Shown: one piece after another, positions 4,270-6,959 of the stretch
Position numbering within the stretch: the stretch's first letter is position 1
Layout of the letters: each line of letters begins with the position of its first letter
NCBI RefSeq assembly: GCF_947568905.1
Contig: NC_079171.1
Location: 33,728,001 to 33,792,000 of the forward strand
Length of the DNA: 64,000 nucleotides
Reading direction: 5' to 3'
DNA from: Ostrea edulis
Lineage: Eukaryota
Notes under the pieces: generated by a model
The model's database searches: none
What the model was told of the DNA's origin: nothing
The model's input: only the letters and a program-made list of their open reading frames with translations
Translations under genes and position numbers: made by a program

Positions 4270-5277
4270 TCAATCAAGATCACTCTCAATCGATTTCACG
4301 TCCTGTAAATCTCCCACATTGCATTCCTTGGACATATTGTCTTGGGCATCGTAACCGAACGGGGTACATTCGGGACAGTCTAACATTCCAAGTTGATTTT
4401 GATGAGATTCGCTGAACATACAGAGTTCGGTGTCTTTGAGCTCTGGAACAGATTCATGCATTTCTTCAAGGGCATCTCTAAGTCTGGCTAGTTTGTTTCC
4501 GTTCAAAGTGACACCCTTCTTTGTCGGTATGGGTTCTGGGGCATCGTCGGGCTTCCAAAAGTGTCTTATATCCACTGTAGGGTAGCCGGGTGACAACGAG
4601 ACGAACACGCCTCCGCCAATATGCCACTGCACTTCTCCATTCTCCTTTCCAATGTTGTCTATGTAGTCTTCGATATCTGGAAGAAGGGATTCAAATTTTA
4701 ACCAACGAGCCAAAGGAAAGGTGACTCCTTTCTTTGTGGCAATGAGACGACCATGGGATTCTGCGAGATGGCGAATGTGAACGTAAACCGTTCCCTTGTA
4801 AGGCATGACGGTGAGGAACAGGTCATTAAAGTCATCCAGACTTATCCTACATCTTGGCTCCTGAGACTGAGGGTGTGTAGCTTTCTTTGATTGGTTTCCG
4901 GAATCTCCTCTTTCTTTGGTAGGAATGACTAAAGATCTTGCCATAGCTAATTTCTTTTCGTATTCAGACTTCGTATCATCGTCGTTATTCATCAAGAGTC
5001 TCGATAAATCAGCTTGATTGGCTTTCATTAAGGCCATTCGGAATCCCACAAAAGCCCTCGATCCTCGACGTAAAATGATACTAATCAGTTTTCTGCTTTG
5101 GTCGTAACTGGTTTTCTCGGCTTCTATGCGTTGCCTCATTTCGTCGGTGATTATGTTTGAAGCATACAAATGTTCCGCGACTCGAATTGCCATCATCTTC
5201 TTCACCAATATAGTGTAGTTTGCCTTAATAAGGTTTTGATGTTTATCCTCCATCTCTGTCCACATCAAAACTCTCAC
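4270..5277 (-). CDS. CARD (death-fold) + two PC4-like ssDNA-binding domains + C-terminal CHCC motif; ATG start probably 5265 or 5253
   Basis: N-terminal LIKANYTILVKKM..VAEHLYASNIITDEMRQRIEAEKTSYDQSRKLISIILRRGSRAF..F..AL fits a CARD. YVHIRH..ATKKGVTF...W and TVDIRHFW..PTKKGVTL are two PC4 signatures. CMFSESH-x8-CPEC follows. Confidence 0.8.
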   Translation of the reverse strand: MRVLMWTEMEDKHQNLIKANYTILVKKMMAIRVAEHLYASNIITDEMRQRIEAEKTSYDQSRKLISIILRRGSRAFVGFRMALMKANQADLSRLLMNNDDDTKSEYEKKLAMARSLVIPTKERGDSGNQSKKATHPQSQEPRCRISLDDFNDLFLTVMPYKGTVYVHIRHLAESHGRLIATKKGVTFPLARWLKFESLLPDIEDYIDNIGKENGEVQWHIGGGVFVSLSPGYPTVDIRHFWKPDDAPEPIPTKKGVTLNGNKLARLRDALEEMHESVPELKDTELCMFSESHQNQLGMLDCPECTPFGYDAQDNMSKECNVGDLQDVKSIESDLD

Positions 5278-5382
5278 AATAAAAAAAAATGAAGTTAACC
5301 CGTATCCTCTCTGAGACTTGTTCAGGACTGGTGAAAATCATTCAAATCGATCAAATTTATACATCATTTAATCACGTGGTTC

Positions 5383-5570
5383 GTGACTGTAGACTCCCCT
5401 CTGACTGTAGACTCCGCCTTGACTGTAGACTCCCCTTTGGCTATATACTCCCCTTTGACTGTATACTCCCCCATGACATCAGTGACTGTAGACTACCCTC
5501 TGACTGTATACTCCCCCACGACGTCAGTGACTGTAGACTTCAATTTGACTGTAGAAAACACTGGCTGTAG
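5383..5570. repeat. Internal tandem array of ~17-21 bp units (TGACTGTAGACTCCCC type)
   Basis: About 9 degenerate GACTGTA(G/T)ACTCCCC units with ATGACATCA and ACGACGTCA interspersed. Same unit and orientation as the subterminal array. Confidence 0.9.
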
Positions 5571-5579
5571 ATTTTGACA

Positions 5580-5804
5580 TTACAGATCTTTAACATTATG
5601 GGTTTCCAAGTTTTGTGTATGAGATTGAGTACGCATTATTTGTACATTTTTCTCCAGTATAGGATTTAAAACTTTTGATGCATGATGTATTCTTCTTTGA
5701 AAACGATATCTGTCCAAAGCCATGGTCATCCATTTCCCCTTTCGATCTTCATAGGGAATATAGATAATCGTTTTCTTGTCTGAAAATGTCACAGTCTTGC
5801 CCAT
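5580..5804 (-). CDS. PPP1R15/GADD34-like viral PP1 regulatory protein (ICP34.5/DP71L type), ~74 aa
   Basis: KTVTF (RVxF), then IIYI, then RKGKWMTMALDRYRFQRRI, matching the RxGxWxxxAxDRxRFxxRI eIF2alpha-binding motif. First in-frame ATG is at 5804; the ORF track start at 5822 is TTG. Confidence 0.88.
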   Translation of the reverse strand: MGKTVTFSDKKTIIYIPYEDRKGKWMTMALDRYRFQRRIHHASKVLNPILEKNVQIMRTQSHTQNLETHNVKDL

Positions 5805-5847
5805 AGTTTCAATCTTTGACAATTCAACATTTTATTCATGCATCACT

Positions 5848-6288
5848 TTATATACGATTCTGTGCTTTTAAAATAGATTCATCCATATGATCGACAGATG
5901 TTTTAAGGTACTGCCACTGTGTTTTACTCAAGGTAATTCCTTTGTTCCCCGGTTTTCCAGCATGAAATCGTCGTATGTCAATCTGTATGGTGTCGTTGAT
6001 GCATATCATGGCATATACTTCGTTCGAGTGTGGGTACCGATCCACGTATGAACATGTTTTAATAACATCTTTTTCCAAAGTAGGGCGTAAAACACAGTCT
6101 ACCTGATTAGGTTTTTTCTTCTCGTGTAAAACACTGACAGCGATGCACAAAGAAATAATAAGAACAACTGCAAAAAAGCTAGGTACTACAATCCCGATTT
6201 TTTTCTTCAACTTCTCTTTTAACATCCCTTTGCAATCATTTCCACAATCACTTGTTAGAAGTTCCATCATTACCACTTGTTCAGCCAT
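5848..6288 (-). CDS. Predicted single-pass membrane protein with a C-terminal PC4-like domain
   Basis: Hydrophobic IGIVVPSFFAVVLIISLCIAVSVL after KLKKK. IQIDIRRFHAGKPGNKGITLSKTQWQYLK matches the PC4 signature. Confidence 0.65.
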   Translation of the reverse strand: MAEQVVMMELLTSDCGNDCKGMLKEKLKKKIGIVVPSFFAVVLIISLCIAVSVLHEKKKPNQVDCVLRPTLEKDVIKTCSYVDRYPHSNEVYAMICINDTIQIDIRRFHAGKPGNKGITLSKTQWQYLKTSVDHMDESILKAQNRI

Positions 6289-6385
6289 CTTTGATCAAAA
6301 TGATTTTGCTAAACCACCGTATTCCCATTTATATATATACATAACGTATGACCTCTGTGGGCGGGGTTTTCAATACCCTATGATG

Positions 6386-6649
6386 TCATCTTGAACTGTA
6401 AAAATCCGATTCTCTCAAGGTCTGTGGAAAGTATTTTTTCGGCATAATTCTACGTTTCAATATGTATTCTTCAGATCCCCAGCTGTCTGCAATGTCATAA
6501 CCATTTCTCATTTTTTCCTTAAAATCAACAATGCAATCTTCTTTTCTGTCAAACCATTGACTTTCTTGTAAAGTCCATTTCTTTTCATTTTTTCTTAAAG
6601 CACTCCAGGCCAAAATTTTCCATTTGTACTGCTTTTCCTGAGTTGCCAT
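6386..6649 (-). CDS. Small hypothetical Polinton accessory protein (87 aa)
   Basis: ATG-initiated, co-oriented with the other element genes, directly downstream of the subterminal array. No motif recognised. Confidence 0.5.
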   Translation of the reverse strand: MATQEKQYKWKILAWSALRKNEKKWTLQESQWFDRKEDCIVDFKEKMRNGYDIADSWGSEEYILKRRIMPKKYFPQTLRESDFYSSR

Positions 6650-6721
6650 CGTTATGCCAACGCAACTGAGATTTACAGGGTATTTATTCTTATTTTTAAA
6701 AAAGACTCCCTTATGACGTAA

Positions 6722-6935
6722 GTGAGACTACCTCTTGACTGTAGACTTCCCCTTGACTGTATACTCCCCTTTGACTGTATACTCCCCCTTGACTGTATAC
6801 TCCCCTTTGACTGTATACTCCCCCTTGACTGTATACTCCCCCTTGACTGTGTACTCACCCTTGACTGTGTACTCACCCCTGACCTCAATGACCTATGTGG
6901 GAAAAACCCATGACGTCATCCTGACTGTAGACTGA
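6722..6935. repeat. Subterminal tandem array (~21 bp, TTGACTGTATACTCCCC(C/T)) with CRE-like motifs
   Basis: About 8 near-identical units at 6735-6890. TGACGTCA at 6911-6918 and TGACGTAA at ~6714. Confidence 0.9.
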
Positions 6936-6959
6936 CTGTTCTCTGTCCCCCTTACTACT

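What the first reader, a model, noticed from the sequence alone, without database searches (positions are those of the whole stretch)
4270..6959. Terminal anti-host accessory module organised by repeated CRE-containing arrays
Seen: two direct copies of the same GACTGTA(G/T)ACTCCCC array (5383-5570 and 6722-6935), each just upstream of minus-strand genes and each with TGACGTCA-like motifs. They bracket a 3-gene cassette (GADD34-like, TM-PC4, 87 aa). Inference: the arrays are duplicated early promoters/enhancers, possibly ATF/CREB stress-responsive, and act as recombination handles so the cassette can be gained, lost or swapped. A stress-inducible module that disarms the same stress pathway would be a coherent, possibly undescribed system.
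Basis: inference. Interest (0 to 1): 0.72.

Follow-up and report, generated by a model that had tools for sequence, protein, structure and literature searches.

The report
Oyster Polinton end with GADD34-like gene
At one end of a virus-like jumping element in an oyster genome, three look-alike promoter blocks sit in front of small accessory genes, one of which resembles the proteins that animal viruses use to switch protein synthesis back on in stressed cells.

Summary
The arrays are real: 15 matches to the 18-bp unit, all in 5385-5516 and 6737-6877, against 0.09 expected. This is the right end (6959) of a multi-copy oyster Polinton. Each block lies just upstream of a TATA-like box, in front of CARD-2xPC4, TM-PC4 and the 87-aa ORF, so they look like promoter copies derived from the terminus. 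The 74-aa protein is a convincing DP71L/GADD34-type PP1-eIF2alpha adaptor, and I found no report of one in a Polinton. TM-PC4 looks like a glycosylated, luminal PC4 fold. Loss of the cassette by array-to-array recombination is not supported: the arrays share only 29 identical bases, no such junction with unique flanks was listed, and a sister keeps the order. Read depth does fall to about 0.4 of the core genes over 5360-6291 and recovers at the third block, so a two-gene block may be missing or diverged in other subfamilies. Stress induction is untested, and the GADD34-like gene is the one cassette gene without a CRE block directly upstream. New variant of a known kind.

The parts
170..4092 (-). 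Polinton core module: integrase (2938-4092), 145-aa ORF in the minor-capsid position (2480-2917), basic 169-aa ORF (1968-2477), major capsid (649-1965), protease (170-652)
   Evidence: ORFs; Pfam rve + Chromo, DJR-like (E 0.0026, below cut-off), Peptidase_C48/C5; the two middle ORFs have no Pfam or PHROG hit and are named by position only, after the order in PMC8097293
4270..5265 (-). CARD-PC4-PC4 gene, 331 aa
   Evidence: Pfam CARD E 9e-13, PC4 E 2e-14 in two stretches; 80 relatives, named ones from Crassostrea, Saccostrea, Ostrea, Pinctada
5355..5378 (-). TATA-like box (5361-5355), ATTAAA poly(A)-like signal (5372-5367) and E-box CACGTG (5373-5378) between the inner array and the CARD-PC4 start
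   Evidence: motif scans; function inferred
5384..5574 (+). Inner array: five 18-bp units, then two 45-bp blocks that each begin with a CRE-like site (TGACATCA 5474, CGACGTCA 5519), then degenerate units
5580..5804 (-). 74-aa DP71L/GADD34-type PP1-eIF2alpha adaptor (RVxF motif KTVTF; R-x-G-x-W...D-R-x-R-F-x-x-R-I motif)
   Evidence: Pfam PP1c_bdg; profile hits ASFV DP71L E 5.8e-8, PPP1R15B E 4.6e-6, PPP1R15A E 9e-4; motif as printed in PMC5346070
5831..5854 (-). TATA box of the 74-aa gene (5854-5848) and AATAAA after the TM-PC4 stop (5836-5831)
   Evidence: function inferred
5848..6288 (-). TM-PC4 gene, 146 aa: one transmembrane helix (about residues 33-51) and a C-terminal PC4-like domain with conserved cysteines and an N-x-T sequon
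   Evidence: Pfam PC4; hydrophobic helix in 24 of 25 relatives; sequon in 24 of 25, N side more basic in 20 of 25; low-confidence model (pLDDT 56) whose best nine fold matches are PC4/Sub1, all E above 0.05
6333..6400 (+). Third promoter-like block: TATA run (6339-6333, - strand), TGACCT, GC box GGGCGGGG, TGATGTCA (6381) and a degenerate unit; a copy of the block at the terminus
   Evidence: alignment to 6888-6929, score 44 against a control maximum of 31 in 1702 windows; the CRE-like core is kept in L013
6386..6649 (-). 87-aa ORF of unknown kind; its stop codon lies inside the CRE-like site at 6381-6388
   Evidence: no Pfam or PHROG hit; Atlas hits under 0.9; low-confidence model; two premature stops in the L013 copy
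6714..6879 (+). Outer (subterminal) array: TGACGTAA at 6714, a degenerate unit, then eight 18-bp units
   Evidence: unit make-up differs in L013
6880..6933 (+). Terminal block: TGACCT-N3-TGACCT (nuclear-receptor DR3-like), GGGAAAAACCC (Rel/Dorsal-like), perfect CRE TGACGTCA (6911), one unit
   Evidence: sequence, scan; motif names recalled; this block occurs twice in tandem in a diverged contig of run X1 (joint 6933 back to 6900)
6954..6959 (+). Polinton end motif ACTACT; right end of the element
   Evidence: end motif (AGT)2//(ACT)2 in PMC8097293; 11 and 8 reads run into unlike flanks behind 6959, agreement 0.54 and 0.52
6960..6965 (+). Probable half of the 6-bp target-site duplication (GGCATT) in a 359-bp host satellite
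   Evidence: the flank continues the satellite unit from this word; the other end is outside the window

Best explanation
This is the terminal accessory region of an oyster Polinton (Maverick/adintovirus). The end of the element carries a host RNA polymerase II enhancer-promoter made of 18-bp units and a CRE block. Pieces of it were copied inwards twice and kept as upstream elements of accessory genes: the third block before TM-PC4 and the inner array before CARD-PC4-PC4. Each gene has its own TATA-like box. The element needs host bZIP-type and GC-box factors to start these genes early, as adenoviruses do near their ends. The 74-aa protein then most likely binds PP1 and dephosphorylates eIF2alpha to keep translation on; CARD-PC4-PC4 probably interferes with CARD-based death or immune signalling or couples it to single-stranded DNA; TM-PC4 is a membrane protein with its PC4 fold outside the cytosol. 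The arrays change by slippage and serve as promoters, not as dedicated recombination handles. Shown: arrays, third block, terminus, multi-copy state, protein homologies and motifs. Inferred: promoter activity, the factors that bind, and all protein activities.
For: Terminus and many flanks. CRE-like site followed by TGA within 1-3 nt occurs 6 times on the + strand of the element, all in the three blocks, once on its - strand and once in 53.6 kb of host DNA (motif chosen after seeing the data). Nearest upstream CRE-like site is 113, 42 and 26 nt from the TATA-like boxes of CARD-PC4, TM-PC4 and the 87-aa ORF, against 1338 nt for integrase. A diverged contig in run X1 also has CRE-like sites beside its units and a doubled terminal block. 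DP71L is the best solved relative of the 74-aa family; 125 of 157 relatives keep a simplified eIF2alpha-binding motif and 91 of 157 also an RVxF in front of it. Same gene order in L013 at 94% identity and one unbroken contig over 5131-6493 in X1. [quoted passage not shown]
Against: No transcription start or expression level could be measured. A TGAC-rich repeat makes CRE look-alikes easily, and one of them (6714) is missing in L013. Integrase and the 74-aa gene have TATA boxes without any such block, so the block is not needed for every gene. The 87-aa ORF is broken in L013 (1 synonymous against 10 non-synonymous differences, 2 stops), and TM-PC4 shows 4 against 7, so that pair gives no sign of purifying selection. 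Three of the 8 closest 74-aa relatives lack a complete RVxF or eIF2alpha motif. The depth drop over 5360-6291 (ratio 0.38-0.40) shows that the region is not uniform among copies.
Confidence: 0.6

Rival explanations
1. An optional two-gene block. The DP71L-like and TM-PC4 genes, with the inner array as replacement promoter for CARD-PC4, were inserted behind the third block in one subfamily; other subfamilies lack or replace 5360-6291. This can hold together with the best explanation.
For: Depth in two WGS runs is 14.3 and 16.9 on core genes, 0.40 and 0.38 of that over 5360-6291, and 2.7 and 2.3 times higher again at 6292-6524 (Poisson P 2e-3 and 1e-2 counted as pairs). In X1 only one contig covers 5735-6029, while summed depth triples at 6292-6524.
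Against: The ratio is close to the share of reads at least 99% alike (0.40 and 0.32), so faster divergence below the 88% cut-off explains it as well. TM-PC4 has 25 relatives at 53-89% identity and the 74-aa protein 8 at 52-95%. Two pairs of JGI proteins share a contig length (1615: 74-aa and TM-PC4 relatives; 2362: CARD-PC4 and TM-PC4 relatives at about 80%), which suggests joint descent, but the pairing is inferred from lengths alone. A long imperfect terminal repeat would also raise depth at 6292-6524.
Confidence: 0.3
2. One reading: the two arrays are recombination handles that delete or swap 5580-6650, and the module is switched on by the integrated stress response that it then cancels.
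For: Direct orientation, about 85% identity over about 150 nt; a joint 5434 to 6910 is listed for one contig of X1 and one read of X23. A stress loop through a terminal enhancer exists in adenovirus (XBP1s on the E1A and E4 promoters, PMC7181865).
Against: That joint has only 29 nt, all array, on its short side and unknown letters between; the same point is also listed as 5434 to 5520, so it fits a different array better than a deletion. Longest exact identity 29 nt. The depth step is at about 6292, not at the outer array. No ATF4-C/EBP element in any block, and none of the CRE blocks is directly upstream of the GADD34-like gene.
Confidence: 0.12
3. The arrays are mainly replication or packaging signals, binding sites for an element-encoded or host protein near the protein-primed origin, and the inner copy is an auxiliary origin or enhancer like a baculovirus hr.
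For: The longest array is subterminal; hrs are enhancers and possible origins (PMC4346127); the - strand of the outer array has regular G runs; the element encodes three PC4-type single-stranded-DNA-binding domains.
Against: The units have no palindromic core (no inverted repeat between array units), and all three blocks sit at promoter distance from a TATA-like box.
Confidence: 0.15
4. The inner array is a functionless relic of an older terminus that was later extended.
For: It shares the unit with the terminus and decays towards 5574.
Against: It has no end motif and none of the DR3-like or Rel-like sites; it has its own 45-bp CRE repeat; it begins 23 nt from a TATA-like box; a contig from another sample covers 5131-6493 with 4 differences in all.
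Confidence: 0.1

Closest known systems
Polintons/Mavericks (adintoviruses) with terminal accessory regions
   Same: End motif, integrase-to-protease module pointing to the centre, accessory genes between module and terminus (PMC8097293); anti-host accessory genes such as Bcl2 and IAP homologues are known (PMC8502044 section 3.2).
   Different: Neither paper's text that I saw nor its held supplement names a GADD34/ICP34.5-type, CARD or PC4 gene, and neither passage set describes terminus-derived repeats reused as inner promoters.
ASFV DP71L short form, HSV-1 ICP34.5 and cellular PPP1R15A/B
   Same: RVxF, the eIF2alpha-binding motif and the two leucines that match LSAVL (LNPIL here); 74 aa against 70-72 aa for short DP71L.
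   Different: Carried by an integrating Polinton of a mollusc; activity not tested. Recalled, not checked: the ICP34.5 promoter lies in the tandem-repeat 'a' sequence at the herpes simplex terminus, a close parallel in layout; I saw only a reference title saying the gene maps in inverted repeats.
Adenovirus terminal E1A and E4 enhancer-promoters
   Same: Early promoters near the ends of a protein-primed linear genome with ACGT-core sites bound by a stress factor (XBP1s; PMC7181865); CREB and SP motifs common.
   Different: Here the sites are built into 18-bp and 45-bp tandem units and copied in front of several accessory genes; no binding data.
Baculovirus homologous regions (hrs)
   Same: Repeat arrays present at several places that act as early enhancers (PMC4346127); CRE-like motifs and variable neighbouring genes are recalled, not checked.
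   Different: No palindromic core; confined to the last 1.6 kb of the element in this window; clearly related to the terminus.

Membership tests
Polinton/Maverick | End motif (AGT)2//(ACT)2 or (AG)3//(CT)3 | tested here: met
   ACTACT at 6954-6959; reads leave the reference behind 6959; motif. One end only.
Polinton/Maverick | Retroviral-like integrase | tested here: met
   rve E 1.4e-11 with Chromo
Polinton/Maverick | Adenovirus-like protease and double-jelly-roll capsid | tested here: met
   Peptidase_C5 and C48 above cut-off; DJR-like E 0.0026, below cut-off
Polinton/Maverick | Protein-primed PolB and packaging ATPase | not testable with these tools
   They would lie left of position 1; no genome is held for this window
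Polinton/Maverick | [quoted passage not shown] | tested here: inconclusive
   Only one end in the window; the flank starts with GGCATT of the satellite unit; inner border of the repeat not fixed
Polinton/Maverick | Several insertions with different flanks | tested here: met
   11 and 8 reads with unlike flanks, agreement 0.54 and 0.52
PPP1R15/GADD34 viral orthologues (DP71L, ICP34.5) | RVxF PP1-docking motif | tested here: met
   KTVTF at residues 3-7, aligned to the motif of PPP1R15B
PPP1R15/GADD34 viral orthologues (DP71L, ICP34.5) | eIF2alpha-binding motif Rx[Gnl]x1-2Wxxx[Arlv]x[Dn][Rg]xRFxx[Rlvk][Ivc] | tested here: met
   RKGKWMTMALDRYRFQRRI fits every position of the motif as printed in PMC5346070
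PPP1R15/GADD34 viral orthologues (DP71L, ICP34.5) | Leucines of the DP71L LSAVL stretch | tested here: met
   LNPIL aligns to LSAVL
PPP1R15/GADD34 viral orthologues (DP71L, ICP34.5) | Binds PP1 and dephosphorylates eIF2alpha | not testable with these tools
   Needs an assay; no model of the complex was obtained
ATF4-driven stress promoters | ATF4-C/EBP composite element (recalled: TGATGCAA) near the promoter | tested here: not met
   Only match in the element is at 1356, in the capsid gene
ATF4-driven stress promoters | CRE within promoter distance of the GADD34-like gene | tested here: not met
   Nearest CRE-like sites 527 nt upstream and 335 nt downstream of its TATA; action at a distance is not excluded
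ATF4-driven stress promoters | Induction by stress | not testable with these tools
   No usable RNA data
Baculovirus hr | Imperfect palindromic core in each unit | tested here: not met
   No inverted repeat among array units; definition
Baculovirus hr | Enhancer or origin activity | not testable with these tools
   Needs reporter or replication assays
Cassette mobilised by flanking direct repeats | Sister copies with an empty site and the breakpoint in the repeats | tested here: inconclusive
   No listed joint with unique sequence on both sides; 54 loose ends and 158 pieces were not shown, and contigs drop rare variants

The most novel reading that the evidence does not exclude
Oyster Polintons carry a terminus-derived bZIP/Rel/nuclear-receptor sensor that wakes the integrated element when the host cell is stressed or infected, and some subfamilies add an optional two-gene block (DP71L-like phosphatase adaptor and a membrane-bound, glycosylated PC4 fold) that cancels the translation shut-off: a latency-exit switch with its own counter-defence in an element for which no virus phase has been shown.
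Probability: 0.2. Interest if true: 0.75.

Novelty: new variant of a known kind. Interest (0 to 1): 0.5.

Why it matters
Whether animal Polintons behave as viruses is open; no particles had been seen in the work I read (PMC8097293 abstract). A gene that reverses eIF2alpha phosphorylation is a tool of lytic DNA viruses and makes little sense for a silent germline transposon, so it argues for a phase of heavy expression in cells that fight back. The three promoter-like blocks give exact places to test what turns such an element on. The TM-PC4 family is a structural oddity: a nucleic-acid-binding fold that seems to face the lumen or the outside. NCBI lists the CARD-PC4 relatives as uncharacterized oyster genes, so some apparent oyster immune genes may be Polinton cargo.

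Tried and rejected
No genome is held for the window, so sister copies could not be aligned whole. Viral contigs: no match for the array pattern, CARD-PC4, TM-PC4 or the 74-aa family; prokaryote genomes: none for TM-PC4. Metagenome pattern scan: 25 loci, 1 of 25 a true sister (L013); the other 24 had no protein match and were set aside as unrelated repeats. No RNA holder listed. Run X18, only guessed to be RNA, has three short contigs at depth 2-4 over 6070-6856 and none on core genes; it is not counted as evidence. The joint 5434 to 6910 was rejected as proof of cassette loss (29 array letters on its short side). Cluster look-up for the relatives could not be made, so contig pairing of JGI proteins stays an inference from lengths. 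No model of the PP1 complex was obtained, which says nothing about binding. Rfam: no match in 4000-7000 at E up to 1. The 87-aa ORF stayed unassigned; I had no protein search left for it. ORF 5289-5570 (+, 93 aa) is a read-through of the array and was rejected as a gene. AP-1 sites and canonical GGGRNWYYCC sites: none in the element. Searches for repeats in Tlr1 and for oyster GADD34 gave nothing usable. Earlier findings of this scan: no look-alike; two searches listed other Polinton notes.
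Full report
Setting. Positions 1-6959 are the right end of a Polinton. On the - strand lie integrase (rve + Chromo), two ORFs without family hits in the places of minor capsid and PW, a capsid-like ORF and an adenovirus-type protease, in the order given for vertebrate Mavericks (PMC8097293 passages). The element ends in ACTACT at 6959, and 11 and 8 reads of two WGS runs go on from there into unlike flanks, so there are several insertions. This copy sits in a 359-bp satellite. The host is an oyster: four of the 17 strong holders are labelled oyster metagenome, and named relatives of CARD-PC4 come from Crassostrea, Saccostrea, Ostrea and Pinctada. 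PolB, ATPase and the other end are outside the window, and no genome is held.

The arrays. The 18-bp unit has 15 matches, all in two places, against 0.09 expected. The inner array has five units, two 45-bp blocks that start with a CRE-like site, and decayed units; the outer has eight units followed by a terminal block with TGACCT-N3-TGACCT, GGGAAAAACCC and the only perfect CRE of the element (motif names recalled). They align at about 85% over about 150 nt but share at most 29 identical bases. A third, short copy of the terminal block lies at 6348-6400 (score 44; best of 1702 control windows 31). Six of the window's 41 CRE-like sites fall in these 532 bp, against 0.29 expected; this is partly built in, since every unit starts with TGAC. 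TGACATCA (5474) and TGATGTCA (6381) are what a CRE becomes when its CpG is deaminated (inference).

Promoter anatomy. On the - strand a TATA-like box precedes integrase (4136), CARD-PC4 (5361), the 74-aa gene (5854) and TM-PC4 (6339); the 87-aa ORF has only AATAAATA at 6688. The nearest upstream CRE-like site is 113, 42 and 26 nt from the boxes of CARD-PC4, TM-PC4 and the 87-aa ORF, but 527 nt for the 74-aa gene and 1338 nt for integrase. So three of four accessory genes have a terminus-derived block in front; the GADD34-like gene does not, and the inner array lies behind it, probably as its 3' untranslated region (ATTAAA at 5372). That these are working promoters is inferred, not shown.

The genes. 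The 74-aa family (8 close relatives; 322 proteins at E up to 0.001 in the 50% library) matches ASFV DP71L best among solved structures (E 5.8e-8), then PPP1R15B and PPP1R15A. It has the RVxF motif, the full eIF2alpha-binding motif as printed in PMC5346070 (passages; Rojas et al. 2015 itself not read) and the leucines of LSAVL. Of 157 relatives examined (the 8 and 149 more of the 150 listed), 125 have a simplified eIF2alpha motif, 91 also an RVxF, and 124 are at most 130 aa long; their genomic context is unknown, so they need not be Polinton genes. TM-PC4 has 25 relatives; 24 of 25 have a strong hydrophobic helix, 24 of 25 a sequon at residue 98, and 20 of 25 a more basic N side, which points to a type II membrane protein with a luminal PC4 fold. 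The model is weak (pLDDT 56) and its best nine fold matches, all PC4/Sub1, have E above 0.05. CARD-PC4-PC4 has 80 relatives at 35-99% identity. The 87-aa ORF is unassigned and is broken by two stops in L013.

Is the cassette swapped? For stability: L013 (94% identity, 1119 bp) keeps the three genes and the outer array in order but does not reach the inner array; run X1 has one contig across 5131-6493 with 4 differences; two pairs of JGI proteins share contig lengths, which hints at joint descent down to about 70-80% identity. For variation: depth over 5360-6291 is 0.40 and 0.38 of the core genes in X23 and X24 and rises 2.7 and 2.3 times at 6292-6524. The low zone is bounded by the inner array and the third block, not the outer array. 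Three readings remain: other subfamilies lack these two genes; they have them below the 88% cut-off (the ratio is close to the share of reads at least 99% alike, 0.40 and 0.32); or the terminal repeat reaches inwards to about 6300. The one listed joint between the arrays (5434 to 6910) has only 29 array letters on its short side and fits a differently built array in a diverged copy. The call did not show 54 loose ends and 158 pieces, and only about 6% of each raw run was read, so rare deletions are not excluded.

Stress control. The blocks hold generic CRE-type sites; the ATF4-C/EBP element (recalled) occurs only at 1356. CREB and SP/KLF motifs are the commonest active motifs of adenovirus and herpesvirus regulatory elements (10.1101/2025.07.20.665756 passages), so a CRE alone does not mean stress induction. 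A stress loop through terminal promoters is known for adenovirus (PMC7181865 abstract and passages), and ATF4 activates cellular GADD34 (PMC10743859 passages), so the idea is reasonable but has no direct support here.

Mechanism I favour (0.6): host factors bind the terminal block and its two inner copies and start the accessory genes early; the 74-aa protein recruits PP1 to eIF2alpha and keeps translation on; the CARD and PC4 proteins act on death signalling and single-stranded DNA. The arrays are promoters that change by slippage.

Novelty. 'Polinton' with 'GADD34' gives 0 papers in the held library. In one search, 19 of 20 listed papers have no 'PC4'; the other, on C. elegans, was not read. 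Searches listed nothing on these genes or on terminus-derived inner promoters, judged by titles and abstract starts. PMC8502044 (passages and section 3.2) names Bcl2, IAP, gasdermin-like and oncoid genes but none of these; its one held supplement and that of PMC8097293 have no hit for GADD34, ICP34, CARD or PC4, though the first may have been cut at 4 million characters and figure labels are not text. A PP1 review names only HSV-1, ASFV and TGEV orthologues in the passages seen (PMC10807198). PMC4346127 and 10.1101/2023.08.22.554363 were seen as passages (bioRxiv supplements are closed). Most subscription journals and Repbase were not searched. Each part has a precedent in other DNA viruses; the combination in a Polinton seems undescribed. 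Verdict: observation confirmed and extended, interpretation partly supported, new variant of a known kind, interest 0.5.

Noticed in passing
window 6294, 5819 and 4121 (- strand): The word TCAAAGAT occurs three times on the - strand of the element, each time between the TATA-like box and the start codon, of TM-PC4, the 74-aa gene and integrase: a possible shared initiator or leader motif.
   Followed up: partly
window 5848-6288: TM-PC4 keeps an N-x-T sequon and four to six cysteines across its family, so a PC4 nucleic-acid-binding fold appears to face the lumen or cell surface.
   Followed up: partly
window 6381-6388: The stop codon of the 87-aa ORF is the last three bases of the CRE-like site of the third block.
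   Followed up: no
window 6900-6933: A diverged contig in run X1 carries the terminal CRE block twice in tandem, with a GC-box-like spacer like that of the third block (joints and loose ends).
   Followed up: partly
window 6749-6879 (- strand): Regular runs of 3-5 G every 18 nt could form G-quadruplexes with long loops.
   Followed up: no
window 6960-10300: Host satellite with 359-bp and 438-bp variants of one unit; the Polinton is inserted in it.
   Followed up: partly
   Followed up: no
window 29396-32160 (+): ORFs that look by eye like a DIRS-type retroelement with a split tyrosine recombinase; not searched.
   Followed up: no
window 33837-34514 (-), 36397-37299 (+), 55981-56439 (+): By eye: a reverse-transcriptase fragment, a Harbinger-like transposase and a piggyBac-like N-terminus; not searched.
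   Followed up: no
window 63147-63539 (+): Cys-rich ORF ending in a FYDFET motif, by eye the start of a PolB of another Polinton-like element; not searched.
   Followed up: no
window 18447-19157, 35105-35667, 51408-51677: Further tandem arrays in host DNA (periods 131-138 and 20-114).
   Followed up: no
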